Shown here: one piece after another, positions 33,437 through 49,551 of the stretch | Numbering within the stretch: the first letter of the stretch is position 1 | Layout: each line of letters starts with the position of its first letter | IMG/VR virus record: IMGVR_UViG_3300022925_000006 | DNA: 64,000 bases | Strand: one strand, 5' to 3' | From: a virus | The notes under the pieces: model-generated | The model's database searches: none | What the model saw: only the letters and a program-made list of their open reading frames with translations | Told to the model about the DNA's origin: nothing | Translations under genes and position numbers: made by a program

Positions 33437-33448
33437 GGAGTAGGAAAA

Positions 33449-33976
33449 ATGGCAATATTAGGCGTAGATGATTTTAAATCGAAACTCAGAGGGGGCGGTG
33501 CTCGTCCTAATCTGTTTAAAGCGACCGTCAACTTTCCAGGCTATGCAGCGGGAGATGTAGAACTTACATCTTTCCTTTGTAAGACTGCTCAGTTGCCAGC
33601 GTCCGTAATGAATGTGTTTGAAGTTCCGTTCCGAGGTCGTCAATTAAAAATGGCGGGTGACCGAACATTTGAACCTTGGACAGTAACCATTATCAATGAT
33701 ACTGACTTCAGCATCCGTAACGCTATGGAACGTTGGATGAACGGTATCAATGCCCACCAAGCTAATACTGGTCTGAGTAATCCTATTGATTACCAATCAG
33801 ACTTGATTATTGAGCAGTTGGATAGAGATGGTGAAACACTCAAAACTTATAACTTCCGTGGTTGTTTCCCGACTAATGTCAGTGCAATCGATGTGAGTTA
33901 TGAGACTGTAGATGCTATCGAAGAGTTTACAGTTGAGTTCCAAGTTCAATATTGGGAATCTGATACCACTAGTTAA
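33449..33976 (+). CDS. gp19: Tail tube protein gp19
   Basis: GGARPNLF, FRGRQLKMAGDRTFEPW and IEEFTVEF. Confidence 0.95.
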   Translation: MAILGVDDFKSKLRGGGARPNLFKATVNFPGYAAGDVELTSFLCKTAQLPASVMNVFEVPFRGRQLKMAGDRTFEPWTVTIINDTDFSIRNAMERWMNGINAHQANTGLSNPIDYQSDLIIEQLDRDGETLKTYNFRGCFPTNVSAIDVSYETVDAIEEFTVEFQVQYWESDTTS

Positions 33977-33989
33977 TCTAGTTATAGAT

Positions 33990-34022
33990 AGAGGGGTAAG
34001 GGGATAATCTCTTACCTCTTTA
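33990..34022 (+). terminator. Probable hairpin terminator after gp19
   Basis: Imperfect inverted repeat GAGGGGTAAGGGG-ataa-TCTCTTACCTC followed by TTT. Confidence 0.5.
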
Positions 34023-34045
34023 TTATATACATTGAAGGTACATAA

Positions 34046-35557
34046 ATGGCAGAACAAGACAATAGTATTCTCAAACTATTTGGTTTTGAAATCAAGAGAC
34101 AAGACTCTAAATCAGACCAAAAAGAAAAAGAGAAGTTAAAATCAATTGTTGCTCCCACCGATGAAGATGGTGCGGGGTATGTTACTGCGTCTGGTAGCCA
34201 CTACGGTCAATATATTGACATGGAAGGTAGTCAGGCAAAGGACAACCAACAACTCATTATGAAATATCGTGGTGTCGCATCACACCCTGAAGTAGATGCA
34301 GCTGTTGAAGATATCGTTAACGAATCAATTGTTGGTTCAGAAATGGATGTCACATGTGAATTGAATCTGGACAAAGTAGACGCACCAGATAGTATTAAAA
34401 AACAAATGACCGAAGAGTTCAACAACGTTTATGGTATGTTGAAATTCACCGATTTGGGTCATGACATATTCCGTTCATTCTATGTTGATGGTCGTATCTA
34501 TCACCACCTCGTAGCGAATGAATCAAATCTTAAAGCTGGTATCCAAGAAATCAGAACGATTGATGCCGCAAAGATTCGTAAAGTAAAAGAAGTAAAACAT
34601 AAGAAAGACCCAATAACTGGCGCAAAGGTTGTTGAGAAGGTCTCCGAATTTTATATCTATCAAGAAAGAGCAGGTGCAAATCAAGGCGTAAGACTTTCTC
34701 CTGATAGTGTTTCATATGTGTCTAGTGGTCTCCTTGACCCTAGTAAGAAACAGGTTGTGTCCTATTTACACAAGGCACTAAAACCAATTAACCAATTACG
34801 TATGATGGAAGACAGTCTTGTTATCTATCGTCTCGCACGTGCCCCCGAACGTAGAATTTTCTACATCGATGTCGGTAACATGCCACGTAATAAATCAGAA
34901 TCATATATGCGTGACATTATGTCTCGTTATAGAAATAAGATTGTATATGATTCAAGTACTGGTCAACTTAAAGATGACCGCAAACACATGTCTATGTTGG
35001 AGGACTTCTGGTTACCTCGTAGAGAAGGTGGTCGTGGTACAGAGATTAGTACATTGCCTGGCGGTGAGAACCTTGGTCAGATTGATGACATCCTGTACTT
35101 CCAGAAGAGACTGTATCGTTCATTGAACGTACCTGTCAACCGATTGGAACAAGAAGCGCAATTTACACTAGGTAGGTCAACAGAGATTTCTAGGGACGAA
35201 GTTAAGTTCCAGAAGTTTATTGACCGTCTACGTAGAAGATTCTCAATGTTGTTTACTGGTATTCTCAAGAAACAACTTATCATGAAAGGTATTATTACCG
35301 AACAGGATTGGGAAGAGTGGAAGAATTCTATTACAGTTGACTTCCAAAGCGACAACCACTTCTCGGAACTAAAGGATGCAGAACTGTTACAAAACAGACT
35401 ACAAACTCTAGACCAAGTATCACAATATGTTGGTGAGTACTTCTCACGTGAGTGGGCAATGAAAAACGTCATGATGATGTCTGACGAGGACATCGAAGAA
35501 ATGAAAAAACAAGTCGAAGCTGAAAACTCAGTAGTAGACGAAGATGAGGAAATTTAA
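34046..35557 (+). CDS. gp20: Portal protein gp20
   Basis: YRLARAPERRIFYIDVGN and MLEDFWLPRREGGRGTEISTLPGG. Confidence 0.97.
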   Translation: MAEQDNSILKLFGFEIKRQDSKSDQKEKEKLKSIVAPTDEDGAGYVTASGSHYGQYIDMEGSQAKDNQQLIMKYRGVASHPEVDAAVEDIVNESIVGSEMDVTCELNLDKVDAPDSIKKQMTEEFNNVYGMLKFTDLGHDIFRSFYVDGRIYHHLVANESNLKAGIQEIRTIDAAKIRKVKEVKHKKDPITGAKVVEKVSEFYIYQERAGANQGVRLSPDSVSYVSSGLLDPSKKQVVSYLHKALKPINQLRMMEDSLVIYRLARAPERRIFYIDVGNMPRNKSESYMRDIMSRYRNKIVYDSSTGQLKDDRKHMSMLEDFWLPRREGGRGTEISTLPGGENLGQIDDILYFQKRLYRSLNVPVNRLEQEAQFTLGRSTEISRDEVKFQKFIDRLRRRFSMLFTGILKKQLIMKGIITEQDWEEWKNSITVDFQSDNHFSELKDAELLQNRLQTLDQVSQYVGEYFSREWAMKNVMMMSDEDIEEMKKQVEAENSVVDEDEEI

Positions 35558-35558
35558 A

Positions 35559-35852
35559 ATGAGTGAAGTAGAAAATCAAGAAATTGAAACCGTACAACCC
35601 CATGCGGTAGAAGAACTAATTAATCAAATCACTTCGGGTGACTTGACTAATGCAGAGGGTTCGTTCCATAGTATCGTTCAAGATAAGATGGCAGATGCAC
35701 TAGAAGCACAACGTATTGCGACTGCACAAGCAATCTTTAACGACCAAGACGATGACATCGAAGACGAAGATGACTTCGAAGTGGACGAAGAATCCGAAGA
35801 AAATGAAGAAATTATTGCAGAATTAGAGGATGATGACGAAGAAACTGCATAA
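35559..35852 (+). CDS. Acidic prohead core protein (gp67-like)
   Basis: Position after the portal gene; very acidic C-terminus; ATG at 35559 with GAGG SD. Confidence 0.6.
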   Translation: MSEVENQEIETVQPHAVEELINQITSGDLTNAEGSFHSIVQDKMADALEAQRIATAQAIFNDQDDDIEDEDDFEVDEESEENEEIIAELEDDDEETA

Positions 35853-35878
35853 ATATGTTGTTTCAAAAACATTATTCT

Positions 35879-35886
35879 TATAAATA
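35879..35886 (+). promoter_or_regulatory. T4-type late promoter TATAAATA
   Basis: Exact consensus upstream of the 35892 ORF. Confidence 0.8.
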
Positions 35887-35891
35887 ATACT

Positions 35892-36110
35892 ATGAAAACA
35901 TACAAAGAACTTTTGTCAGAATTAAAAGAACGCAAGCCAAAAGGTGAAGTGGTCTTAGACAAGAAAGTTAAACGTATCCCTGTTCTTATCACTAAGGAGA
36001 AGGGTACTTTACCTTTTGTGGTACATATTGATGGTGACCGATTGGACGCTTTCAAATCACTAAAGGATGCAGAGAAGTCTGCGATGAGAGTAATAAAGGA
36101 ATTAACCTAA
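35892..36110 (+). CDS. Small basic protein in the gp68 position
   Basis: 72 aa, lies between the gp67-like gene and gp21. Confidence 0.55.
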   Translation: MKTYKELLSELKERKPKGEVVLDKKVKRIPVLITKEKGTLPFVVHIDGDRLDAFKSLKDAEKSAMRVIKELT

Positions 36111-36772
36111 TGAAGTTAATTACAGAATTTACAGAAAACGAAACTCTACAATGTATAGTAGAGAAGAAAGAGAATGGCGAGAAAAGTTACGTCATCGAAG
36201 GCGTTTTCGCACAGGCAGACAAAAAGAATAGAAACGGACGTGTTTACCCCAAGGCCATTATGGAGAATGCGGTAAACAAATACGTAACAGAACAAGTATC
36301 TAAGAAACGGGCAGTAGGGGAACTAAACCATCCCGAAGGGCCGACAGTTAACTTAGACAAAGTTTCACATCTCATCACAGACCTCAGATTTGAGGGAAAT
36401 GATGTGGTTGGAAAGGCACAAATATTGGAAACTCCAATGGGTAAGATTGTAAAAGGTCTCCTTGATGGTGGTGTCCAACTAGGAGTGTCAACTCGTGGTA
36501 TGGGTAGTCTTGAGCAGAGAAACGGCGCAATGGTCGTCAAAGACGACTTTATTCTTAGTACGATTGACATCGTACAAGACCCTAGCGCACCTGAAGCTTT
36601 CGTTAATGGTATAATGGAAGGTGTAGACTGGGTTTGGAATAACGGTGTTTTAACGCCTCAAGTAATTGAAAAAATGGAGACTGAAATTAAACACGCTCCG
36701 AAAACTGTCTTATATGAGACAAGTGTTCGAGAGTTCAAGAATTTCCTCTCGTTAATTAAATCTAATATGTAA
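36110..36772 (+). CDS. gp21: Prohead protease gp21
   Basis: NRNGRVY, GELNHP, GVSTRGMGS and DPSAPEA. Confidence 0.95.
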   Translation: MKLITEFTENETLQCIVEKKENGEKSYVIEGVFAQADKKNRNGRVYPKAIMENAVNKYVTEQVSKKRAVGELNHPEGPTVNLDKVSHLITDLRFEGNDVVGKAQILETPMGKIVKGLLDGGVQLGVSTRGMGSLEQRNGAMVVKDDFILSTIDIVQDPSAPEAFVNGIMEGVDWVWNNGVLTPQVIEKMETEIKHAPKTVLYETSVREFKNFLSLIKSNM

Positions 36773-36782
36773 GGAGTCAATT

Positions 36783-37835
36783 ATGACTGAAGAAAGTAAA
36801 GTCGAAGTTGAACTTCACGATGAAGACATTAACGACATTGTGGAAGAAACTCTCGAAGAAGGAAGCGCTCCTGCTCCTAAAGGGAAACCTGATACAAATG
36901 CAACTGACGAAGAAGAGTCAATCGCATCTGTAGATAAAGCAGCAGACGCAACCAAAGCAAAACAAGCTCCTGCACCGAAAACAAAAGCGGGCATGATTAA
37001 TGCAATGAGCATGAAGTTACACGCTATGAAAAAAGCAGACCTTCAAGCCTCATACGGCAAGATGATGGGCGAAGAAGTTGAAGTAGACGATGCAATCGTG
37101 GAAACACAGATTGATACCTCTGCTGAACTGGACGCATTAGTCGAGTCTGAAGCTACTCTCAGTGATGAGTTTAAAGCTAAAACCGCAGTAATTTTCGAAG
37201 CAGCTGTAAAATCAAAACTATCAGAAGAAGTTGATAGAATTGAAGCGCAGTACAAGGAAGAGTTGGCAGAAGAAATTTCTTCTACTAAATCAGAACTTGT
37301 AGAGAAAGTAGACAGCTACCTGAACTACGTAGTTGAAACTTGGATGGAAGAAAATCAAGTTGCAATCCAGAGCGGTCTCCGCACTGAAATTGCCGAGACT
37401 TTCATGGACAAAATGAAAGACCTGTTTACAGAGTCTTACATTGAAGTACCTGAATCCAAGGTTGACCTAGTTGACGAACTGGCTGAGTCAGTAGAAGAAC
37501 TTGAGACTCGTCTCAACGAAACTACTCAGAAAGTTATTGACACTACAGAGGAACTGGAAGTATACAAACGTGAAACGATTATTCGTGAAGCGACACGTGA
37601 ACTTGCAGAAACTCAAGTTGAAAAATTGAAATCACTCGTTGATGGTTTGGATTTTGATGACGAAGAATCTTTCGCATCTAAAGTAAAAACTGTAAAAGAG
37701 TCGTATTTCTCAAAAGAAATCACTGATAAGGGTGAAGTAGAACAAATCATTGAAGACGCTGATGAAACATCTGAAGTATCTTCTGTGATGGAATCCTATC
37801 TAGCAACTATCAGAAAAACAGCATCTAAATCATAA
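36783..37835 (+). CDS. gp22: Prohead scaffold gp22
   Basis: FKAKTAVIFEAAV and KVDSYLNYVVETW; acidic coiled coil. Confidence 0.92.
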   Translation: MTEESKVEVELHDEDINDIVEETLEEGSAPAPKGKPDTNATDEEESIASVDKAADATKAKQAPAPKTKAGMINAMSMKLHAMKKADLQASYGKMMGEEVEVDDAIVETQIDTSAELDALVESEATLSDEFKAKTAVIFEAAVKSKLSEEVDRIEAQYKEELAEEISSTKSELVEKVDSYLNYVVETWMEENQVAIQSGLRTEIAETFMDKMKDLFTESYIEVPESKVDLVDELAESVEELETRLNETTQKVIDTTEELEVYKRETIIREATRELAETQVEKLKSLVDGLDFDDEESFASKVKTVKESYFSKEITDKGEVEQIIEDADETSEVSSVMESYLATIRKTASKS

Positions 37836-37847
37836 GGAAAAATTAAA

Positions 37848-39161
37848 ATGCAATCTTACGACACATTAATCGAAAAGTGGGCTCCAGTTCTTAACGAAGA
37901 GTCTGCTGGCGTGATTGGCGATAATCACCGCCGTGCAGTTACCGCTGCAATCTTAGAAAACCAAGAAAGAGCAATGATGGACGACCGTCAGGCTTCTCAT
38001 GGTTTTATGACCGAAAACGCTGCTGCTGGTGCTAATAACACTGGTTCAGTAAATAACTTTGACCCAGTACTAATCTCATTAGTACGCCGTGCAATGCCTA
38101 ACCTCATCGCTTATGATGTGTGTGGTGTTCAACCTATGAATGGCCCAACTGGTCTCATCTTTGCGATGAAATCACGTTACCAAGGTGGCGCTACTGCAAA
38201 TCGTGAAGCACTATTCAACGAAGCTGAAACTCAGTTCTCTGGTGATAGTTCTGGTACTCACGACAGTGACAACGCTTCTGGTTGGAATGGTGTTGACAGT
38301 GAAGGCGCTCGTTTGACTGACCTTGCTGCTGGCGGAATGCCAACTGCGGACGCTGAAGCACTTGGTCGTGTTGGTGGTTCATCTTTCAACGAAATGGGTT
38401 TCACCATTGAAAGACAGACTGTAACTGCTAAGTCACGTGCTCTTAAAGCTGAGTACACTTTAGAACTTGCACAAGACCTTAAAGCGATTCATGGTCTTGA
38501 CGCAGAAACAGAATTGGCTAACATCCTCTCTACTGAAATCCTTGCGGAAATCAACCGAGAAGTTATCCGTACTGTTAACAGCCAAGCGAAAACTGGTGCT
38601 CAACAAGCTAACGTTACTGCAAAAGGTATCTTTAACTTGTCTTCTGACGCTGATGGTCGTTGGTCTGCTGAGAAGTTCAAAGGTCTAACTGTACAGATTG
38701 ACCGTGAAGCAAACGTAATTGCAAAAGAAACAAGACGTGGAAAAGGTAACGTAGTTATCTGTTCTTCAGATGTTGCTACTGCACTTGCTGCTGCTGGTTC
38801 TTTGGACTACTCACCTGCAATCAGCAACAACCTTCAGGTTGATGACACTGGTAATACTTTTGCTGGTGTATTAAACGGACGTATCCGTGTATACATCGAC
38901 CCTTATGCTAGCACTGATTATATCACTGTTGGTTATAAAGGTACTAACCCGTATGACAGTGGTGTATTCTACTGCCCATACGTACCGTTGCAAATGGTTA
39001 AAGCAGTTGGTGAAGATGACTTCCAACCACGTATCGGGTTTAAAACTCGTTACGGTATGGCTTCAAACCCATTCGTTGGTGCTACACCTTCTGACGGTCT
39101 TGCTGCTGCAAAGACTAACCAGTACTACAGAATCTTCAAGGTTACTAATATCTTGACTTAA
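37848..39161 (+). CDS. gp23: Major capsid protein gp23
   Basis: LVRRAMPNLIAYDVCGVQPM, AKSRALKAEYTLELAQDLKAIHG and FQPRIGFKTRYG. Confidence 0.98.
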   Translation: MQSYDTLIEKWAPVLNEESAGVIGDNHRRAVTAAILENQERAMMDDRQASHGFMTENAAAGANNTGSVNNFDPVLISLVRRAMPNLIAYDVCGVQPMNGPTGLIFAMKSRYQGGATANREALFNEAETQFSGDSSGTHDSDNASGWNGVDSEGARLTDLAAGGMPTADAEALGRVGGSSFNEMGFTIERQTVTAKSRALKAEYTLELAQDLKAIHGLDAETELANILSTEILAEINREVIRTVNSQAKTGAQQANVTAKGIFNLSSDADGRWSAEKFKGLTVQIDREANVIAKETRRGKGNVVICSSDVATALAAAGSLDYSPAISNNLQVDDTGNTFAGVLNGRIRVYIDPYASTDYITVGYKGTNPYDSGVFYCPYVPLQMVKAVGEDDFQPRIGFKTRYGMASNPFVGATPSDGLAAAKTNQYYRIFKVTNILT

Positions 39162-39220
39162 TCTGTAATAAGAAGAGTGATTGGATTGGGAGCGCCCAGT
39201 CGTTAAATCACCGTTCTTTA

Positions 39221-39249
39221 AGGGAGACTTTCGGGTCTCCCTTTTTTTT
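39221..39249 (+). terminator. Rho-independent terminator of the head operon
   Basis: AGGGAGAC-tttcgg-GTCTCCCT followed by a T-run. Confidence 0.9.
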
Positions 39250-39254
39250 GGCAT

Positions 39255-39277
39255 AAAAAACCCCACCGAAGTGGGGT
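39255..39277 (-). terminator. Rho-independent terminator for the minus-strand tRNA island
   Basis: Minus strand CCCCAC-TTCG-GTGGGG-TTTTTT (cUUCGg loop), back-to-back with the gp23 terminator. Confidence 0.9.
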
Positions 39278-39287
39278 AAAGGAAAGT

Positions 39288-39362
39288 TGGAGCGGAGAGA
39301 TAGAATTGCACTACCACTTCTAGGTTGGAAACCTAATGTTCTACTCTTTGAACTATCTCCGC
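39288..39362 (-). tRNA. tRNA-Gly (anticodon UCC), CCA encoded, atypical D- and T-loops
   Basis: GCGGAGA TA GTTC AAAGAGTA GAAC A TTAGG TTTCCAA CCTAG AAGT GGTAG TGCAATT CTATC TCTCCGC T CCA; full cloverleaf with U73 discriminator. Confidence 0.92.
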
Positions 39363-39373
39363 ATTGTTTGTAT

Positions 39374-39402
39374 ATAGTACCACACTATACAGTTAAAGTC
39401 AA
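39374..39402 (-). promoter_or_regulatory. sigma70-type promoter for tRNA-Gly
   Basis: Minus strand TTGACT-17 nt-TACTAT with TGn extension; -10 ends 12 nt before the tRNA 5' end. Confidence 0.75.
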
Positions 39403-40373
39403 GCCACTTTTACCAATTCTTTTACATTTTCTGTTTCCCTATTTTGCGGTAGGAATCCAAGAACACGTAAAGGAAAAACTTTCAGTCCACAATGTTCCAA
39501 CGCAGCCTTGTGTTGATTCAGTTGTTCTATGAATTTCTTTCTTTTTAGTTCAAGTGGCAACTTTGCAGTTGGCGCTTTCACATGTCCAATTAAGTCAGTA
39601 TACTTCCCTGTTTCCATGTAACGTTGAACAGCTTGCATGATAACACGATACTGATAACCTTCACCAATACACACACCGTATGTATCACTATCTTCATTAT
39701 ATTCACCACCAACGACATGTTCAGTCGATGCGTGATTTTCAACCCACTCTTGTACTCTTACGGGTGAGGGAAATAATCTGTAAGGTTGTGGGGTTCCAAC
39801 TTCTTCCATAACCATATTCAGTACACGACCCTTACATGATGCATCACGAGTTCTACCGTAAATACGTGTGAACTCTTTACGAATAGCATCTTCGGTGTTA
39901 GGGATACGTCCGTCAGATACCTTACGACTAAGGTGATGTCGCATATCCACTTCCTTGTTGAGATGTTTGGGATAACCCTCATTCTCTCGTGCTTGTACAT
40001 CTTCCATCTGTGATGGTGTACCAACAAGTAGTGTGAATATCCAGTCCTTTTGTCCTAAGGCACGGATTGCGTCACTACGTCCATATCCATAGACTAGGAC
40101 ATAACGTTTCGCATGGCCATCACCACGGTCATATACAGCTGGGGGGAACTCTGCCGTATCAACACCGTTTGCGAATGACAAACGAAGTTGTTCAAGTTCT
40201 TGTGCTGTGTGGGTTTCTACTTTTTGGTTATTACCCCCTTCATCATCGATATGAATATTATCGAAAGATATCTTGAGGTTTTTTACTGAAGTTACACCAA
40301 GGTCGGTGTAGTTGGGTAACGCAATTGCGTCAGGGTTTGATGCAGAATAATCTGCGAGTGCTATAATAGCCAT
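39399..40373 (-). CDS. Hypothetical protein with ParB/Srx-like N-terminal region
   Basis: FPPAVY...YVLVYGYGRSDAIRALG resembles the ParB-N P.xV...Y.lv.G..R..A...LG pattern; AGGAG SD. Confidence 0.5.
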   Translation of the reverse strand: MAIIALADYSASNPDAIALPNYTDLGVTSVKNLKISFDNIHIDDEGGNNQKVETHTAQELEQLRLSFANGVDTAEFPPAVYDRGDGHAKRYVLVYGYGRSDAIRALGQKDWIFTLLVGTPSQMEDVQARENEGYPKHLNKEVDMRHHLSRKVSDGRIPNTEDAIRKEFTRIYGRTRDASCKGRVLNMVMEEVGTPQPYRLFPSPVRVQEWVENHASTEHVVGGEYNEDSDTYGVCIGEGYQYRVIMQAVQRYMETGKYTDLIGHVKAPTAKLPLELKRKKFIEQLNQHKAALEHCGLKVFPLRVLGFLPQNRETENVKELVKVA

Positions 40374-40454
40374 AGTTTTCTCCTATTGGATTAAAGTTAA
40401 GTGAAGTAGAATGCCAAAGAGGTTTCCTAAAACACAATAATATATATAAGACTT

Positions 40455-41594
40455 TTATCTTATAATATCAATATCGTCTGCGTTTGTATTCCAAGTCTCT
40501 ATAACAGAACGCAAACGTCCATCTGCTTTTAGAGTTTCGTATCGATTGGTCGCCTTCTTACGCCACCAATCTGTCACACCCTCAAGACTGAACCTATCAA
40601 AGTTATCTGCTTTGACAATGGTATCCGACTCAAGGTTGAGATACTTCTTCACACTCTCACGGTCAAATCCCATGCAAGAGTAATATGAATTCTTTTGTTG
40701 TGTTAGTCCCTTCGCATCAATAAAGGTTTGACAGAACTTGTCGTATGCATTTACGTCATATTCCTTTAGAGAGTTTTTGATGATAGACACCATCTTCTGT
40801 TGTGTCTTCAACTTACGAGATGATGCATCCTTTGGTACAAGAGACTCACCGTTGTTACGTTTAATAAACCAGTCACTCAATGTACGATAGTTGTTGTCAT
40901 TGATAAGTGGTGCAAAATTAGAGTCTGTCTGGCCATTACCAATCAATAGTGGTTTCATACCAGAGTACATAGACACACCACCCTTGGCATTACCGTACAG
41001 GGACGTGGTCTCGAACATACAGATGTTTGAGTCATACTTCTTATTGAGTGCGTCACGTACCGTATGAGAGGTACATATAGAGGCGAGTAACTTACCACCA
41101 AGGTAGTTGAACCCGAATGGTTGCACAGGTACGATATTGAATCCCATGATACAGGACTCATTGAATCGTTTCATAACCTCTGCATTCATAGTATCAAGAG
41201 GTTTACCCAACCACTCATTACGTGGTCGGCTATTAATAGTGGGTGACCCGAATCGAATCATACCAATGACCATACCCGTGTTCTTCTCACGTACTACCCA
41301 GTTCATCATCTTGCCAGGAATTGACGCTTCTACAGGTGCGGATGTGGTGATATCCATATAGGACATGAATTGGTCACGTTTCGCCTCTGCGATAGTGAAC
41401 TCCATATCTTGGGGGTGCATATCGAAGTTGTTGAACAGGTCTTCCTCTGGGCCCATGCCAGGCAGAGTGAACGGCATAGAGTCCATCCGTTCCAATTTAA
41501 TCTGTCGCATATAGTCATCGATACGGTCAAAGTTCGCAAAGAACTCCGTAAAGACGTTTGCAGCATATTCTGCATCTGTTTTCGATAGAATCAT
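40455..41594 (-). CDS. DUF4338/DruA-like protein (GNAT/Mom-related)
   Basis: IGMIRFGSP..NSRPRNEWLG, PFGFNYLGGKLLA and FETTSLYG motifs. Confidence 0.65.
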   Translation of the reverse strand: MILSKTDAEYAANVFTEFFANFDRIDDYMRQIKLERMDSMPFTLPGMGPEEDLFNNFDMHPQDMEFTIAEAKRDQFMSYMDITTSAPVEASIPGKMMNWVVREKNTGMVIGMIRFGSPTINSRPRNEWLGKPLDTMNAEVMKRFNESCIMGFNIVPVQPFGFNYLGGKLLASICTSHTVRDALNKKYDSNICMFETTSLYGNAKGGVSMYSGMKPLLIGNGQTDSNFAPLINDNNYRTLSDWFIKRNNGESLVPKDASSRKLKTQQKMVSIIKNSLKEYDVNAYDKFCQTFIDAKGLTQQKNSYYSCMGFDRESVKKYLNLESDTIVKADNFDRFSLEGVTDWWRKKATNRYETLKADGRLRSVIETWNTNADDIDIIR

Positions 41595-41618
41595 GTATAT
41601 CTCTCAGTTATGTGTACC

Positions 41619-41647
41619 ACTATACAGTATATAGCAAATAATGTCAA
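41619..41647 (-). promoter_or_regulatory. sigma70-type promoter for the minus-strand island
   Basis: TTGACA-17 nt-TATAGT on the minus strand, upstream of the 41594 start. Confidence 0.75.
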
Positions 41648-43151: not shown

Positions 43152-43679
43152 ATGGCAGTTAATTCAAAAGTTCAGATTCTAGATGAAGAACTGACAACCA
43201 ATTTAAACTATCTCCAACCTACGGGGTTTCGTGTTGTTATTGACAGAACGAGATACCCGAACTTGGAATATTTTTGTCAATCGGTGTCACATCCTGGCGC
43301 ACAGTTAACTCCACTAGAATTACCTGTACGTAGGATTACTTCCGTACCTTTGGCTGGTGATAAGATGACATTCTCGGAAGTGTCGTTTTCTATCATCCTT
43401 GATGAGAACATGACCTCCTATCGTGAGATGTATGACTGGATGGTTCGTATTACTAATGACGGTCAAGTGTCTGCATCTGAGAGAGATACCAAAGTCCCTA
43501 CATATGCTGACGTTACATTACATGTGTTGTCTAGTCACAATAACACAACACAGAAGATTAAGTATTTTGATTGTGTGCCTACTGGAGTTGGTTCTATTGA
43601 ATTCAATTCAACGCAAGGTGATACAACCTACGTTACCTTTGACGCAACATTTAGGTTCTCACAATTTACAATAGTTTGA
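43152..43679 (+). CDS. gp3: Tail tube terminator/completion protein gp3
   Basis: NYLQPTGF, YFCQSV.HPG, GDKMTF and LDENM..Y.EMYDW; precedes uvsY. Confidence 0.85.
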   Translation: MAVNSKVQILDEELTTNLNYLQPTGFRVVIDRTRYPNLEYFCQSVSHPGAQLTPLELPVRRITSVPLAGDKMTFSEVSFSIILDENMTSYREMYDWMVRITNDGQVSASERDTKVPTYADVTLHVLSSHNNTTQKIKYFDCVPTGVGSIEFNSTQGDTTYVTFDATFRFSQFTIV

Positions 43680-43705
43680 CATTAACCCTTTAGTTATGGT
43701 ATAAT
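43676..43705 (+). promoter_or_regulatory. sigma70-type promoter for uvsY-uvsW
   Basis: TTGACA-18 nt-TATAAT with TGn extension. Confidence 0.7.
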
Positions 43706-43710
43706 ACATT

Positions 43711-44160
43711 ATGATTGACTTAGAAAGCATCCTTGCGGAGTGGAAAGAAGACTCCCAAATATCACCACATCAACTTGATGAAACCTCACGTGTGACGCCT
43801 GCGTTACACTCAAAGTATCTTGAGTATCTGTCACTGACTAAACTTCGTCTGAAGAAGTCGGAGTTTAAACAGAAGGAACTACTCAAGGACAAGTATCTTT
43901 ACTACGAAGGAAAGATGTCTAGAGAGGAAATTGAATCTCGTGGTTGGGCATATGACCCGTATGATGGCCTCAATGCAACAACCAAAAACTTTAAGGAGTA
44001 CTACTACGACTCCGATAAAGAGATTCAGGATTCTGAGATGAGAATCCAATACCTCAAAACAACTGTTGAAACTCTCACTGAAATTGTATCTAATCTTAAC
44101 TGGAGACACCAGACGATTGGTAACATGATTCGATGGAGAAGTTTCGAAGCAGGTATGTAA
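43711..44160 (+). CDS. uvsY: Recombination mediator UvsY
   Basis: W.EDS.I...LHSKYL...YYEGK...I.NMIRWR.F; gp3-uvsY-uvsW gene order. Confidence 0.85.
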   Translation: MIDLESILAEWKEDSQISPHQLDETSRVTPALHSKYLEYLSLTKLRLKKSEFKQKELLKDKYLYYEGKMSREEIESRGWAYDPYDGLNATTKNFKEYYYDSDKEIQDSEMRIQYLKTTVETLTEIVSNLNWRHQTIGNMIRWRSFEAGM

Positions 44161-44175
44161 GGCATATATAGATGC

Positions 44176-45657
44176 ATGACACTACCTAATACTATTACCG
44201 TTGGTTTAAGAGACCACTCGATGATGTTGGTTGATTGTAACCAACACCAACTCCAAGAACTGAGAGACTACTTCTCATTTTATGTCCCAGGCCATAAGTT
44301 CATGCCGGCTTTCAAATCAAGAAAGTGGGACGGTAAAATCAAACTCTTCAATCAGATTACCCGTGAATTAAATACGGGTCTCTACGAACATCTGAAGAAA
44401 TTCTGTTCTGACCGCATGTATCCTCTCCAACTACAGGAGACTGCATATGGTCATCCCGCACAATTCAATCATGTGCAACACCAGAATCTAGTTAAGTTCC
44501 AAAGCGAACTCAACCTACCGTTCGAACTACGTGACTATCAATATGATGCGGTAACCCACGGTATTGAAAAGAAACGTGCAATTCTTCTATCACCTACGGG
44601 TAGTGGTAAGTCGTTTATCATCTATAATCTACTACGATGGTATCTTGATAACTTTGATAAACAGGTTCTTATCGTTGTTCCGACAACAAGTCTGGTAGAA
44701 CAGATGTACAAGGATTTTGAAGACTATGGGTATGATGTCACAGACAATGTGCATCGCATCTATAGTGGTAAGGATAAGACCACCGATAAACCCATCATCA
44801 TTTCTACGTGGCAGTCAATCTATAAGTTCCCGAAGGAATGGTTCGAGACTATGGGGTGCGTGTTTGGTGACGAGGTACACCTGTTCAAAGCAAAGTCTCT
44901 GTCAGGTATCATGAACAAGTGTGTCAATGCGGAGTATCGTTTCGGTACTACAGGTACACTAGATGGTACAGAGACGAACAAACTCGTATTAGAAGGACTC
45001 TTTGGCCCGACTAAACGAGTGACCGCAACCAAGGACTTGCAAGAGAAGGGTACACTGGCAAAATTAGATATATCTGTCCTATTACTGCGTTACCATAATG
45101 ATGTGTGCCACATGATGAAGGACAAGACCTATCAAGAAGAGATGGATTATATTGTCACCAATGAGAGTCGTAATAGACTTATAAGTAATCTTGCATTAGA
45201 CCAAAAAGGTAATACTCTGGTCATGTTTCAGTTCGTAGAGAAACATGGTAAACCTTTATTTGATATGATTAAGGATAAAGCGGGTGACCGACCAGTGTAT
45301 TATGTGAGTGGTGAAGTCGAGACAAAAGACCGTGAACAGATACGTGGTATCGTAGAAGGACAAAAGAATGCAATTATTGTTGCTAGTTTGGGCACTTTCA
45401 GTACTGGTATTAATATTAGGAATTTGCATAATATAGTATTTGCATCCCCTAGTAAGAGTCAAGTTAAGGTGTTACAATCGATAGGGCGTGGTCTGAGGAA
45501 GTCTGACGATGGCTCTGTGACCAAGTTATATGATATTGCGGATGATATGCACATCAAGTCTCATAAGAACTTTACACTGCGACACAGCGCAGAAAGAATT
45601 AAGATATATACTAAGGAACAGTTCCCCTACAACATATATAAATTGGATTTAAAATGA
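44176..45657 (+). CDS. uvsW: Helicase UvsW
   Basis: SPTGSGKS, DEVH and LQSIGRGLR SF2 motifs; WDGKIKLF. Confidence 0.95.
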   Translation: MTLPNTITVGLRDHSMMLVDCNQHQLQELRDYFSFYVPGHKFMPAFKSRKWDGKIKLFNQITRELNTGLYEHLKKFCSDRMYPLQLQETAYGHPAQFNHVQHQNLVKFQSELNLPFELRDYQYDAVTHGIEKKRAILLSPTGSGKSFIIYNLLRWYLDNFDKQVLIVVPTTSLVEQMYKDFEDYGYDVTDNVHRIYSGKDKTTDKPIIISTWQSIYKFPKEWFETMGCVFGDEVHLFKAKSLSGIMNKCVNAEYRFGTTGTLDGTETNKLVLEGLFGPTKRVTATKDLQEKGTLAKLDISVLLLRYHNDVCHMMKDKTYQEEMDYIVTNESRNRLISNLALDQKGNTLVMFQFVEKHGKPLFDMIKDKAGDRPVYYVSGEVETKDREQIRGIVEGQKNAIIVASLGTFSTGINIRNLHNIVFASPSKSQVKVLQSIGRGLRKSDDGSVTKLYDIADDMHIKSHKNFTLRHSAERIKIYTKEQFPYNIYKLDLK

Positions 45658-48843: not shown

Positions 48844-49034
48844 TGGCAACAAAGAATGATATTACTGGTGATAGTATAGTTACCAAGGGTACGTCAGAAG
48901 AGTACCGTGATAACTATGACAACATCTTTCGTAAGAAGAAACCAACTTTCTGGGAACACTATTGTCTGGTTGAGGATACCTTATTAGGTGTCGAATCAGG
49001 TAGTCCGTGTAACTGGTGTGGTCTTGAAGAGTGA
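48843..49034 (+). CDS. Small hypothetical protein with Cys motif
   Basis: KNDITGDSI.TK...YRDNYDNIF and HYC...CNWC. Confidence 0.6.
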   Translation: MATKNDITGDSIVTKGTSEEYRDNYDNIFRKKKPTFWEHYCLVEDTLLGVESGSPCNWCGLEE

Positions 49035-49551
49035 CTTTACTGTAGATGAGATTGGATATGATGATGCTAAATCAATAATAGTTCGTCATCATTATCTGGG
49101 TAAAATATACGATGAACATGATGAGAGAGTTCGTGAATACAAATACTACGGTCTTTACGATAAAGATATTCTAGTCGGTGCAATTCAATACACCTCGTAT
49201 TGTCCCATCTTCAATGGCAATAACGCATTACGTTGGTATTACGGGTGTGACTATTCCGACTACACTAAGTTCTATGAGATATCCAGACTTGCAGTAAACA
49301 GTAAAGAATACAATATTACTTCTTGGTTTGTGTCCCGAACCATGAAGATGATTGATGCAGATTATATCTGTACATCAACTGACAGTAGAATGCATGACGG
49401 TATAATCTATGTGGCATGTAATATGGACTACCACGGGACTATGTTAGAAAGGGTAAATGGATATGAACATATACCTTTCAATGTATTTAGTAAAGTGTAC
49501 AATAAAAATGTTGTACGAGAATGGGAAACAAAACAGCTTGACTTTAATTGA
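49024..49551 (+). CDS. Mom-like GNAT-family DNA (adenine) modification protein
   Basis: AKSIIVRHHYLG, YGLY..LVGAI, YEISRLAV, TSWFVSR and D...HDGIIY.ACN motifs; TTG start at 49024 preferred. Confidence 0.7.
   Translation: MKSDFTVDEIGYDDAKSIIVRHHYLGKIYDEHDERVREYKYYGLYDKDILVGAIQYTSYCPIFNGNNALRWYYGCDYSDYTKFYEISRLAVNSKEYNITSWFVSRTMKMIDADYICTSTDSRMHDGIIYVACNMDYHGTMLERVNGYEHIPFNVFSKVYNKNVVREWETKQLDFN

What the first reader, a model, noticed from the sequence alone, without database searches (positions are those of the whole stretch)
39288..41647. Minus-strand island: atypical tRNA-Gly with ParB-like and DUF4338 (GNAT/Mom-related) genes, a possible tRNA-dependent DNA modification system
Seen in sequence: these are the only minus-strand genes in the window, with their own promoters and terminator. 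The tRNA keeps the GlyRS identity elements (G1-C72, C2-G71, G3-C70, C35/C36, U73, CCA). It lacks the D-loop GG (AAAGAGUA), has UGCAAUU in place of UUCRANY, and has G50-U64 and U51-A63 in the T-stem. Established: staphylococcal non-proteinogenic tRNA-Gly species that feed Fem transferases show this kind of deviation (loss of GG, GUGC, a weak 51-63 pair lowering EF-Tu affinity), and several GNAT-fold enzymes use aminoacyl-tRNA. I recall recent work reporting that Mu Mom uses glycyl-tRNA-Gly as donor, but cannot verify it here. Inference: a dedicated glycyl-donor tRNA for the DUF4338 and/or Mom-like enzyme. Caveat: UGC T-loops also occur in ordinary phage tRNAs, and A18/G55 may be compensatory.
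Basis: partly seen in the sequence, partly recalled or inferred. Interest (0 to 1): 0.75.

Follow-up and report, generated by a model that had tools for sequence, protein, structure and literature searches.

The report
Phage GNAT enzyme with own tRNA-Gly
A marine T4-like phage carries, as one early-expressed unit, a DruA-family acyltransferase, a ParB-like DNA-binding protein and a glycine tRNA; in related phages this enzyme gene repeatedly sits beside a glycine tRNA, which points to an untested system that uses tRNA-bound glycine outside protein synthesis, most likely to modify DNA as phage Mu's Mom does.

Summary
On the minus strand at 39260-41647 lie a sigma-70-type promoter, a 379-aa DruA/DUF4338 GNAT, a 324-aa ParB-fold protein, a second promoter, tRNA-Gly(UCC) and a terminator. 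The tRNA has A18/G55 in place of G18/U55.

The strongest result is comparative.
- A glycine-type tRNA lies within 3 kb of this GNAT in 29 of 48 informative viral loci.
- The linked loci span at least 7 GNAT lineages and several gene orders, with anticodon UCC or ACC.
- No other tRNA species lies within 2 kb of the GNAT.
- Among polymerase-anchored loci the tRNA occurs in 10/18 with the GNAT and 0/62 without. Among capsid-anchored relatives it occurs in 5/6 against 0/39.

The glycyl-tRNA synthetase (GlyRS) identity elements are near-invariant, while decoding features decay in some lineages.

Sister phages carry a canonical, T4-like tRNA-Gly at the same spot.

In an exhaustive PDB fold search the GNAT's top match is Mu Mom, but it ties with ordinary GNATs.

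A true Mom-family gene also lies at 48988-49551.

The biochemistry is untested. Earlier notes of this scan report the same association on other phage DNA. I found no paper describing it.

The parts
41619..41647 (-). Sigma-70-type (early) promoter of the GNAT/ParB-like operon, TTGACA-17-TATAGT
   Evidence: Consensus scan gives 11 of 12 matches. It lies 25 nt upstream of the ORF start at 41594.
40455..41594 (-). DruA/DUF4338-family GNAT-fold acyltransferase, 379 aa
   Evidence: Family matches: Pfam PF14236 at 2.5e-10, with all 36 aligned relatives matching it; PADLOC DruA at 1.6e-7; phrog_19197 at 4e-145. The AF2 model has pLDDT 91. Fold search: GNATs, with top hit Mu Mom 8bv8 at Z 9.6, rmsd 3.7, 166 residues aligned. 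The protein collection holds 6615 homologues.
39399..40373 (-). ParB/sulfiredoxin-fold protein, 324 aa: ParB-N-like domain (about residues 25-132), helical domain (134-195) and an unassigned alpha/beta C-terminal domain
   Evidence: The AF2 model has pLDDT 87. Fold matches: PadC Z 10.2, pNOB8 ParB-N Z 10.0, KorB Z 9.2; Foldseek probability 1.0. G96-x-G98-R99 and E130-N131-E132 are invariant. The family is small, 166 proteins. Its stop codon overlaps the -35 hexamer of the tRNA promoter.
39374..39402 (-). Sigma-70-type promoter of the tRNA gene, TTGACT-17-TACTAT with an extended TG
   Evidence: Found by the consensus scan. The same promoter sequence is conserved upstream of all three tRNA sequence types in sister phages.
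39288..39362 (-). tRNA-Gly(UCC), 75 nt with encoded CCA; A18/G55 variant of the elbow
   Evidence: ARAGORN; Rfam 62.7 bits; own model R1 79.8 bits. Across 22 linked tRNAs 96% of cells pair, and 15 of 21 pairs show compensatory change.
39260..39277 (-). Intrinsic terminator directly after the tRNA
   Evidence: Stem of 7 pairs with a GC-rich core, followed by a T run. It faces the plus-strand terminator of the capsid gene at 39220-39243.
48988..49551 (+). Separate Mom-family gene (187 aa) between the gp47-like and gp46-like genes; a possible second user of Gly-tRNA
   Evidence: Pfam PF25680 Mom at 2.4e-11, 44.1 bits against a cut-off of 27.1, covering profile positions 1-137 of 202. phrog_1384 'Mom-like' at 1.6e-13. 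BLASTP to Mu Mom aligns the equivalents of R111, S124, D149, R151 and Y159.

Best explanation
The island is a three-part module, transcribed early by the host RNA polymerase.

Parts and proposed roles:
- A DruA-family GNAT acyltransferase.
- A fast-evolving ParB-like DNA-binding protein, possibly nucleotide-dependent.
- A phage-encoded tRNA-Gly.

Proposed steps:
1. The host glycyl-tRNA synthetase charges the phage tRNA.
2. The GNAT takes the activated glycine from its CCA end.
3. The GNAT transfers the glycine to a non-ribosomal acceptor. The most likely acceptor is a base in phage DNA, as Mu Mom does at adenine N6.
4. The ParB-like protein brings or spreads the enzyme on DNA.
5. The linked tRNA ensures a supply of donor. 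In some lineages it has become a private carrier that no longer decodes.

What is shown: the gene content, the folds, the promoters and terminator, and the non-random, glycine-specific linkage of tRNA and GNAT.

What is inferred: charging of the tRNA, the donor role, DNA as acceptor, and the role of the ParB-like protein.
For: (1) Linkage in loci anchored on the GNAT.
- Of 95 viral loci, 32 hold a glycine-type tRNA or tRNA-like gene.
- It lies within 3 kb in 29 of 48 loci with enough flank.
- No tRNA of another type lies within 2 kb. The only others are Thr at 5-9 kb and Ala at 10 kb.

(2) Many arrangements.
- The tRNA lies 9-66 nt after the GNAT stop in L031, L047 and L052.
- It lies 17 nt before the start in L044.
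- It lies one gene upstream in L048-L050 and L053, or one gene downstream in L093.
- It lies after a ParB-like gene in the window clade and in L023/25/27.
- The GNAT tree needs adjacency in at least 7 separate lineages.

(3) Controls.
- DNA-polymerase-anchored loci: 10/18 with the GNAT hold the tRNA against 0/62 without, Fisher p = 2.7e-8.
- Capsid-anchored relatives of this phage: 5/6 against 0/39, p = 4.9e-6.

(4) Complete genomes.
- HTVC008M's only tRNA is Gly(ACC), 8.3 kb from its GNAT.
- In S-SSM7 the tRNA-Gly lies 3.2 kb from the GNAT and 65 kb from the phage's four-tRNA cluster.
- Mosig holds an unannotated tRNA-Gly(ACC)-like gene 630 nt from its ParB-like homologue.

(5) What is conserved is what GlyRS needs.
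- G1-C72, C2-G71 and G4-C69 are invariant, G3-C70 is kept in 21/22, and U73, C35 and C36 are kept.
- Decoding features vary: anticodon UCC or ACC, G33 in five types, and a 69-nt form with a 5-nt anticodon loop (L036).

(6) Codon use.
- GGA makes up only 18% of glycine codons in the window.
- It accounts for 3 of 40 glycine codons in the capsid gene and 0 of 28 in the portal gene.

(7) Fold.
- In an exhaustive PDB search the best match of the GNAT is Mu Mom, at Z 9.6 with the longest alignment.
- FemA, another Gly-tRNA user, scores Z 9.1.
- Mom's use of Gly-tRNA-Gly is established (PMC13219725).

(8) The middle slot is ParB-like in every variant examined, although the sequences are unalignable. 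Distant ORF1 homologues follow the GNAT in other lineages: L015/16, L033, L060 and L064.
Against: - No experiment exists for any DruA-family protein that I could find.
- Sequence profiles do not link the GNAT to Mom: hhalign gives probability 0.2, and Pfam Mom gives no hit at E up to 10.
- The Mom fold match ties with ordinary acetyl-CoA GNATs at Z 9.5-8.
- The family keeps a near-invariant Q158-x-x-G161-x-N163...G166-G167-K168 stretch at the beta4-alpha3 position. In classical GNATs that position binds the CoA pyrophosphate, so an acyl-CoA donor is not excluded.
- About 40% of informative loci show no nearby tRNA, including many cyanophage-type loci and S-SCSM2R, whose tRNA-Gly sits in a tRNA cluster 47 kb away.
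- tRNA-Gly also occurs in phages without the GNAT: T4, S-SKS1 and S-CAM1.
- Sister phages have a canonical, T4-like tRNA-Gly in the same slot, so the tRNA may also serve translation.
- GNAT-bearing loci also hold more tRNAs of other kinds than GNAT-less loci, 6/18 against 2/62. Some lineage confounding therefore remains.
Confidence: 0.5

Rival explanations
1. The tRNA is an ordinary translational tRNA. tRNA-Gly(UCC) is an inherited member of the T4-type tRNA set. It supplements GGA/GGG decoding and merely shares a hyperplastic, promoter-flanked insertion site with unrelated accessory genes.
For: - The canonical form in sister phages is 80% identical to T4 tRNA-Gly.
- The window's tRNA keeps U33, a 7-nt anticodon loop and a full cloverleaf.
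- The junction after the capsid gene is an insertion hot spot. It holds tRNA-Asp in five GNAT-less relatives.
- The modules are shuffled between phages at conserved early promoters.
Against: - Only glycine tRNAs lie within 2 kb of the GNAT, in at least 7 lineages and several gene orders.
- Relatives without the GNAT have none: 0/62 and 0/39.
- GGA is a minor codon and is nearly absent from the capsid and portal genes.
- Some linked forms have G33, a 5-nt anticodon loop or shrunken arms.
Confidence: 0.15
2. The tRNA is the target or an antidote, not the donor. The GNAT would acylate or otherwise modify (aminoacyl-)tRNA-Gly, as the TacT-type GNAT toxins acetylate Gly-tRNA-Gly or as TmcA acetylates a tRNA base. 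The phage tRNA would then be its dedicated substrate, or a resistant replacement for inactivated host tRNA-Gly.
For: - The glycine-specific linkage fits this reading equally well.
- GNATs that act on tRNA are known; TacT and TmcA are discussed in PMC13219725.
- The family keeps a CoA-type beta4-alpha3 motif.
- The varied elbow and anticodon-loop sequences could be escape changes.
Against: - The recurrent ParB-like (DNA-binding fold) partner points to DNA.
- Tolerance of both UCC and ACC anticodons argues against a wobble-base modification.
- The best fold match is Mom rather than TacT-type toxins; 7byy scores Z 8.0.
- It is unclear what a lytic phage would gain from blocking glycine decoding early in infection.
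Confidence: 0.15
3. The tRNA is a counter-defence spare, functionally unrelated to the GNAT. It would replace host tRNA-Gly cut or depleted by a host tRNA-targeting defence. Its odd loops would be escape mutations, as proposed for other phage tRNAs (PMC10264068).
For: - The anticodon loop varies: position 32/33 changes, and A34 alternates with U34.
- The elbow variants recur.
- The tRNA has a strong early promoter of its own.
Against: - This does not explain why the tRNA appears only where the GNAT is present.
- It does not explain why non-decoding forms are kept.
Confidence: 0.1

Closest known systems
Mom of phage Mu (Pfam PF25680; PDB 8bv8), the Gly-tRNA-Gly-dependent N6-adenine modifier of dsDNA (PMC13219725)
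   Same: Both are phage-encoded GNAT-fold enzymes. Mom is the best structural match of the 379-aa protein, at Z 9.6 with 166 residues aligned. A glycine tRNA is the proposed co-substrate, and the likely role is anti-restriction.
   Different: - It belongs to a different sequence family (DruA/DUF4338) with no profile match to Mom.
- It is about 150 residues longer, with extra N- and C-terminal helical regions.
- It is expressed from an early promoter, whereas Mom is late.
- Mom uses any host tRNA-Gly isoacceptor and carries no tRNA of its own. Here the phage supplies the tRNA and adds a ParB-like partner.
- Mom's essential residues could not be mapped onto it.
Staphylococcal non-proteogenic tRNA-Gly with the FmhB/FemA/FemB transferases (PMC7826273, PMC4574755)
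   Same: Both involve extra tRNA-Gly(UCC) species with deviant D/T loops that are still charged by the one GlyRS. They are used as glycine donors by GNAT-fold transferases outside the ribosome. FemA is among the top fold matches, at Z 9.1.
   Different: - The staphylococcal tRNAs lose G18, G19, U55 and C56 together and carry A49-U65/U50-A64/A51-U63.
- The window's tRNA keeps G19-C56 and swaps G18/U55 for A18/G55.
- The acceptor there is a peptidoglycan precursor, not nucleic acid.
- The lineages are unrelated.
DruA of type I Druantia anti-phage systems (Pfam PF14236)
   Same: It is the same Pfam family. The window protein scores above the curated cut-off and also matches the PADLOC DruA models.
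   Different: - The window protein is encoded by a phage.
- The match covers only the GNAT core, residues 82-198.
- I did not look for DruB-E or other Druantia genes in the window.
- The function of DruA itself is unknown, so membership explains nothing about mechanism.
ParB-like partners of DNA-modification systems, such as DpdB of the Dpd 7-deazaguanine system, DndB, and ParB-methyltransferase fusions (recalled from my own knowledge, not checked here)
   Same: In each case a ParB/Srx-fold protein is encoded next to an enzyme that alters DNA.
   Different: - The 324-aa protein has no detectable sequence match to these proteins.
- Its family is small and hypervariable.
- Neither binding to the GNAT nor nucleotide hydrolysis has been shown.

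Membership tests
DruA / DUF4338 (Pfam PF14236) | Profile score above the curated gathering score | tested here: met
   The window protein scores 40.4 bits against 27, E 2.5e-10, over residues 82-198. All 36 aligned relatives match, best 3e-29.
DruA / DUF4338 (Pfam PF14236) | GNAT fold of the core | tested here: met
   The AF2 model has pLDDT 91. GNAT structures fill the hit lists.
DruA / DUF4338 (Pfam PF14236) | Genomic context of a Druantia type I system (DruB-E) | not tested
   PADLOC was run on only three window proteins; the GNAT matched the DruA models and the other two matched nothing. The flanking genes I scanned are capsid, tail and recombination genes of a T4-like phage. DruB-E were not searched for in the rest of the window.
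Mom family (Pfam PF25680): the 379-aa GNAT | Profile match to Mom | tested here: not met
   None of the 36 members hits Pfam Mom at E up to 10. hhalign against Mu Mom gives probability 0.2.
Mom family (Pfam PF25680): the 379-aa GNAT | Fold closest to Mom, including its insertion | tested here: inconclusive
   8bv8_B ranks first of 48,161 chains (Z 9.6, rmsd 3.7, 166 aligned), but it ties with ordinary GNATs at Z 9.5-8.7. A phage Mom ranks 7th in BFVD.
Mom family (Pfam PF25680): the 379-aa GNAT | Essential residues R111, S124, D149 and R151 | not testable with these tools
   No residue-level structural alignment is returned, and the sequence alignment fails.
Mom family (Pfam PF25680): the 379-aa GNAT | Transfer of glycine from Gly-tRNA-Gly to dsDNA | not testable with these tools
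   This is a biochemical property. Only genomic linkage to tRNA-Gly is shown.
Mom family (Pfam PF25680): the 187-aa gene at 48988-49551 | Profile match and essential residues | tested here: met
   Pfam Mom gives 44.1 bits against 27.1. phrog_1384 matches. The equivalents of R111, S124, D149, R151 and Y159 align with Mu Mom.
Mom family (Pfam PF25680): the 187-aa gene at 48988-49551 | HTH-like insertion (Mu residues about 175-209), needed for activity in Mu | tested here: inconclusive
   The match covers profile positions 1-137 of 202. The protein ends about 36 residues after the aligned part, against 72 in Mu Mom.
ParB / sulfiredoxin fold (ParB_N, PF02195) | Pfam profile match | tested here: not met
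   There is no Pfam family at E up to 1 and no PDB sequence match.
ParB / sulfiredoxin fold (ParB_N, PF02195) | ParB-N/Srx fold followed by a helical DNA-binding-type domain | tested here: met
   PadC gives Z 10.2 (rmsd 2.3, 94 aligned), pNOB8 ParB-N Z 10.0 (156 aligned), KorB Z 9.2 and sulfiredoxin Z 8.3. These stand above unrelated rows at Z 7 or less. Foldseek gives probability 1.0.
ParB / sulfiredoxin fold (ParB_N, PF02195) | GxxR and EN motifs of the nucleotide-binding pocket | tested here: met
   G96, G98, R99, E130, N131 and E132 are invariant in 25 homologues. Assigning them to the ParB motifs rests on my own reading.
ParB / sulfiredoxin fold (ParB_N, PF02195) | CTP or ATP binding, and DNA clamping | not testable with these tools
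   This is a biochemical property.
Bacterial-type tRNA-Gly | Cloverleaf with the GlyRS identity set (G1-C72, C2-G71, G3-C70, U73, C35, C36) | tested here: met
   Supported. The set is conserved across 22 linked tRNAs.
Bacterial-type tRNA-Gly | Canonical elbow G18-U55 and G19-C56 | tested here: not met
   The window has A18 and G55, with G19-C56 kept. A18/G55 covaries without exception in 7 of 22 linked tRNAs.
Staphylococcal-type non-proteogenic tRNA-Gly | Loss of G18, G19, U55 and C56, with a weak 49-65/50-64/51-63 set | tested here: not met
   Only positions 18 and 55 differ, and they covary. The T-stem is G-C, G-U, U-A, against A-U, U-A, A-U in staphylococci (PMC7826273).
Staphylococcal-type non-proteogenic tRNA-Gly | Poor binding to EF-Tu and the ribosome | not testable with these tools
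   This is a biochemical property.

The most novel reading that the evidence does not exclude
DruA-family GNATs as a whole would be aminoacyl-tRNA-dependent transferases. This would include the DruA of Druantia type I defence systems. Aquatic T4-like phages would use them, together with a private and sometimes non-decoding tRNA-Gly and a ParB-like loader, to install a glycine-derived hypermodification on their DNA. That would be a second, independent origin of tRNA-dependent DNA modification, and the first case of a virus encoding a tRNA for a purpose other than translation.
Probability: 0.3. Interest if true: 0.9.

Novelty: new variant of a known kind. Interest (0 to 1): 0.78.

Why it matters
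- Phage tRNAs have been explained for fifty years by codon supply, and more recently by escape from tRNA-cleaving defences. A tRNA kept as an amino-acid carrier for a DNA-modifying, or otherwise non-ribosomal, enzyme would be a third and different reason.
- The GNAT family is very abundant in the ocean. The protein collection holds 6615 homologues, found in phages of cyanobacteria, SAR11 and related plankton. An unrecognised DNA modification there would affect restriction, sequencing signals and host-range models.
- The tRNA-Gly linkage is also the first concrete biochemical clue to DruA/DUF4338, a family of unknown function in the Druantia defence system.
- It is directly testable with cultured phages (HTVC008M, S-SSM7, Mosig) and with the assays already published for Mom.

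Tried and rejected
- Megablast of the island against phage records found nothing. The window's tRNA also has no blastn match there.
- I tried to use blastn with tRNA sequences to list phages that carry tRNA-Gly. T4-type coliphages and vibriophages swamped the results, and the method was too insensitive for divergent tRNAs, so I dropped it.
- No whole genome is held for the window, so the phage's full tRNA set is unknown.
- Profile searches of both proteins against PDB sequences gave nothing.
- hhalign of the ParB-like profile against the unalignable middle-slot proteins of L008 and L017 gave nothing usable. The protein atlas then pointed to ParB_N/DUF6551 clusters, which is a lead only.
- Complex prediction for GNAT plus ParB-like returned no answer. 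It says nothing either way.
- My first pair count on the tRNA alignment used a mis-registered structure. The corrected count replaces it.
- My early conclusion that Mosig has no tRNA-Gly was wrong. My own model finds a Gly(ACC)-like gene there.
- I considered that the Mom-family gene at 48988-49551 might be the real partner of the tRNA. This is unlikely as the main link. No homologue of that gene turned up in any fetched locus, including L045, a relative with the GNAT and the tRNA whose flank reaches 10 kb upstream. HTVC008M lacks any Mom-family gene.
- I considered tRNA punctuation, that is, an mRNA-processing role. I rejected it because any tRNA would serve that purpose, yet only glycine tRNAs are found.


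Full report
**What is in the window**

The window is part of a marine T4-like myophage.
- Sheath, portal, prohead protease, scaffold and major capsid genes lie at 31670-39161. A gp3-like gene, UvsY and a UvsW-type helicase lie at 43152-45657, all on the plus strand.
- The capsid protein is 70% identical to that of Phage C48C1. It is about 61% identical to those of the OM43 phage Melnitz and the SAR11 phage HTVC008M.
- G+C is 39.8%.

Between the capsid gene and the gp3-like gene lies the only minus-strand coding block. Its parts, in order of transcription, are:
- a promoter, TTGACA-17-TATAGT, at 41647-41619;
- a 379-aa ORF at 41594-40455;
- a 324-aa ORF at 40373-39399, after 81 nt with a good Shine-Dalgarno sequence and no promoter-like site;
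- a second promoter, TTGACT-17-TACTAT, at 39402-39374, whose -35 hexamer overlaps the ORF's stop codon;
- tRNA-Gly(UCC) at 39362-39288;
- a terminator at 39277-39260, facing the terminator of the capsid gene.

**The tRNA**

- ARAGORN and Rfam (62.7 bits) agree that it is a tRNA.
- It keeps G1-C72, C2-G71, G3-C70, U73, U33, C35, C36 and an encoded CCA.
- It has A18 in place of G18 (D-loop AAAGAGUA) and G55 in place of U55 (T-loop UGCAAUU).
- Its T-stem pairs are G49-C65, G50-U64 and U51-A63.

**The two proteins**

The 379-aa protein:
- It is a member of Pfam DruA, formerly DUF4338 (40.4 bits against a cut-off of 27). Every one of 36 relatives matches that family.
- An earlier comparative study calls DUF4338 a GNAT domain (PMC10853773).
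- Its AlphaFold2 model (pLDDT 91) has a GNAT core at about residues 60-320, with helical extensions at both ends.
- Compared with 48,161 PDB representatives, the first hit is phage Mu Mom (8bv8_B: Z 9.6, rmsd 3.7, 166 residues). Ordinary GNATs (Z 9.5-8) and FemA (Z 9.1) follow closely, so this is a tie.
- Sequence profiles do not connect it to Mom.

The 324-aa protein:
- It has no Pfam or PHROG match.
- Its model (pLDDT 87) is a ParB/sulfiredoxin-fold domain followed by a helical domain. PadC gives Z 10.2, pNOB8 ParB-N Z 10.0 and KorB Z 9.2. Foldseek gives probability 1.0 for Noc and ParB.
- G-x-G-R and E-N-E motifs are invariant.
- "ParB-like" is therefore confirmed at the level of fold.

**Is Mom really tRNA-dependent?**

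Yes. Silva et al. (Nat Commun 2026, PMC13219725) show the following.
- Mom transfers glycine from Gly-tRNA-Gly to N6 of adenine in dsDNA, and the adduct then rearranges.
- All three E. coli isoacceptors work.
- R111, S124 and R151 are essential, R111A, S124A and D149A greatly reduce activity, and an HTH-like insertion is required.
- The paper does not mention DUF4338, DruA or phage-encoded tRNAs.

**The linkage test**

I fetched viral contigs that encode relatives of the GNAT, 48-100% identical.

Close relatives:
- In all relatives at 90% identity or more with enough flank, tRNA-Gly(UCC) lies about 1.1 kb downstream.
- The tRNA comes in three quite different sequence types behind the same conserved promoter:
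  - the window's A18/G55 type;
  - a 72-nt type with a short D-arm, a single D-loop G and G33;
  - a fully canonical type.
- The canonical type is 80% identical to T4 tRNA-Gly.
- The three modules are shuffled between phages. L002 has a 99.7% identical GNAT but a 68.5% identical ParB-like protein. L009 has 92% and 94% respectively, but the canonical tRNA.

More distant relatives, where glycine tRNAs appear in other arrangements:
- 9-23 nt after the GNAT stop (L031, L047);
- 17 nt before its start (L044);
- one gene upstream, with anticodon ACC (L048, L050);
- one gene downstream, with anticodon ACC (L093);
- several kb away (L029, L084, S-SSM7).

Following a lead from earlier notes of this scan, I looked for forms that ARAGORN misses. 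I used an acceptor-stem pattern and a covariance model built from 22 linked tRNAs. These found:
- further tRNA-Gly genes in L030, L049, L052, L053, L092 and L100;
- 69-nt shrunken forms in L046 and L036, the latter with a 5-nt anticodon loop;
- a Gly(ACC)-like gene in Pelagibacter phage Mosig, annotated there as a 96-nt CDS, 630 nt from Mosig's homologue of the ParB-like protein.

Totals:
- 32 of 95 loci hold a glycine-type RNA.
- It lies within 3 kb in 29 of 48 loci with enough flank.
- The only other tRNAs near the GNAT are Thr at 5-9 kb and Ala at 10 kb.
- On a tree of the GNAT, adjacency within 2 kb occurs in at least 7 separate lineages.

**Controls**

- Loci anchored on the DNA polymerase of the same phage group: 10 of 18 with the GNAT hold a glycine-type tRNA, against 0 of 62 without it (Fisher p = 2.7e-8).
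- Loci anchored on this phage's capsid protein (73-94% identical): 5 of 6 with the GNAT at the capsid-gp3 junction hold the tRNA, against 0 of 39 without it (p = 4.9e-6).
- Two of these loci have a capsid 94% identical to the window's but a GNAT only 63% identical. They still carry a tRNA-Gly.
- Five GNAT-less loci carry tRNA-Asp at the same junction, so the site attracts tRNAs. Glycine comes only with the GNAT.

Complete genomes:
- HTVC008M's single tRNA is Gly(ACC), 8.3 kb from its GNAT.
- S-SSM7 keeps its tRNA-Gly 3.2 kb from the GNAT, apart from its cluster of four other tRNAs.
- S-SCSM2R is a counter-example. Its tRNA-Gly sits in a cluster 47 kb away.
- tRNA-Gly also exists in phages without the GNAT, such as T4, S-SKS1 and S-CAM1.

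**What is conserved in the linked tRNAs**

- The cloverleaf is strongly supported. 96% of cells are paired, against 44-52% with slid partners, and 15 of 21 pairs show compensatory changes.
- G1-C72, C2-G71 and G4-C69 never vary. G3-C70 holds in 21 of 22. C35 and C36 are invariant in all 22 and U73 is kept; CCA is encoded in 21 of 22, the S-SSM7 tRNA lacking it.
- Position 34 is U or A. Position 33 is G in five sequence types.
- Positions 18 and 55 covary without exception: G18/U55 in 10 and A18/G55 in 7. The other 5 have U55 with a shortened D-loop that has one G or none. Mosig, L092 and L100 add three more A18/G55 cases.
A18/G55 is a compensated variant of the elbow, not a broken one.
- The 51-63 pair is G-C in only 5 of 22. 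Proteogenic tRNA-Gly normally carries strong pairs there, and the staphylococcal cell-wall tRNAs carry weak ones (PMC7826273). An AT-rich genome would drift the same way, and no affinity was computed.
- The staphylococcal tRNAs lose G18, G19, U55 and C56 together (PMC4574755), which this tRNA does not.

**Codon use**

GGA is 18% of glycine codons in the window's genes. It accounts for 3 of 40 in the capsid gene and 0 of 28 in the portal gene. This is weak evidence against codon supply, because the host is unknown.

**The partner genes**

- The slot between GNAT and tRNA always holds a protein of 320-345 residues, but the sequences can be unalignable.
- The protein atlas places two such variants in viral ParB_N/DUF6551 clusters. 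This is a lead, not a test.
- Distant homologues of the window's ParB-like protein follow the GNAT in L015/16, L033, L060 and L064.
- Other neighbours are a second DruA-family protein directly after the tRNA (L031), a radical SAM/SPASM protein (L047) and a cytidylyltransferase-like protein (L093).

**A second candidate user**

I confirm that it is a Mom-family gene.
- Pfam PF25680 gives 44.1 bits against 27.1, and phrog_1384 matches.
- The equivalents of R111, S124, D149, R151 and Y159 align with Mu Mom.
- The C-terminal part that holds Mom's HTH-like insertion is missing.

It is not what the tRNA tracks.
- No homologue of it turned up in any fetched locus. This includes L045, a relative with the GNAT and the tRNA and 10 kb of upstream flank.
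- HTVC008M, Mosig and S-SCSM2R have no Mom-family gene.
- In S-SSM7 a Mom-family gene lies about 100 nt after the tRNA cluster that lacks glycine.

**Reading**

The functional coupling of the DruA-family GNAT and tRNA-Gly is well supported. I put it at about 0.85. The direction of the coupling is inferred. I favour donor tRNA to GNAT to DNA (0.5) for four reasons:
- the Mom precedent;
- the fold match;
- the recurring DNA-binding-fold partner;
- the retention of charging elements while decoding elements decay.

The main reservations are:
- the tie with acetyl-CoA GNATs;
- a conserved Q-x-x-G-x-N...G-G-K stretch where CoA-binding GNATs hold the pyrophosphate;
- the loci without a nearby tRNA;
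- the canonical tRNAs in sister phages.

For this window specifically, the tRNA may serve both translation and the enzyme.

**Novelty**

Full-text searches for DUF4338 (4 papers), for DruA with acetyltransferase, and for phage tRNA-Gly found no description of this association. Earlier agents of this scan reported the same kind of module on other phage DNA. I used those notes as leads and tested what I reuse.

Noticed in passing
window 48988-49551 (+): A Mom-family gene (Pfam PF25680, phrog_1384) splits the gp47-like and gp46-like recombination nuclease genes. Mom's essential residues align, but the C-terminal region holding Mom's HTH-like insertion is absent.
   Followed up: partly
L001:3780-3853 (-) = MT647606.1 7779-7852: Pelagibacter phage Mosig has a tRNA-Gly(ACC)-like gene with A18/G55 and T-loop GGCAGUA. 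It scores 79 bits with my model. The record annotates it as a 96-nt hypothetical CDS (Mosig_000011), and the general tRNA search did not report it.
   Followed up: partly
L036:7381-7449 and L046:200-268: These are 69-nt glycine-tRNA-like RNAs next to the GNAT. They keep an intact GCGG...CCGC-U-CCA acceptor end but have shrunken arms. L036 has a 5-nt anticodon loop (CCCAA) that could not read a codon.
   Followed up: partly
L217, L219, L221, L222, L224 (just after the capsid gene): Relatives without the GNAT island carry tRNA-Asp(GUC) on the plus strand at the same capsid-gp3 junction. The junction is therefore a general insertion hot spot for tRNAs.
   Followed up: no
GU071098.1 216422-217392 (L102, L120): In Synechococcus phage S-SSM7 a Mom-family gene (E 2e-33) starts about 100 nt after a cluster of four tRNAs (Ile, Thr, Arg, Leu). 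The phage's tRNA-Gly lies elsewhere, near the DruA-family gene.
   Followed up: no
L031:2621-3997; L047:4019-4942; L093:2031-2423: The genes directly beside the linked tRNA in other lineages are a second DruA-family protein (458 aa), a radical SAM/SPASM protein and a cytidylyltransferase-like protein. These may be further steps of the same pathway.
   Followed up: no
window 39374-39402 and 41619-41647; L002-L017 upstream of the tRNA: Nearly the same early-promoter sequence precedes three unrelated-looking tRNA-Gly types. The GNAT, ParB-like and tRNA modules recombine independently at these promoters. This resembles the promoter-flanked shuffling cassettes described for T4-type phages (recalled from my own knowledge).
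   Followed up: partly
window 39399-40373, residues about 200-324: The C-terminal alpha/beta domain of the ParB-like protein has only weak fold matches (Z about 5), to SfsA and to restriction endonucleases BglII and BsaWI. A nuclease-like fold is possible but not shown.
   Followed up: no
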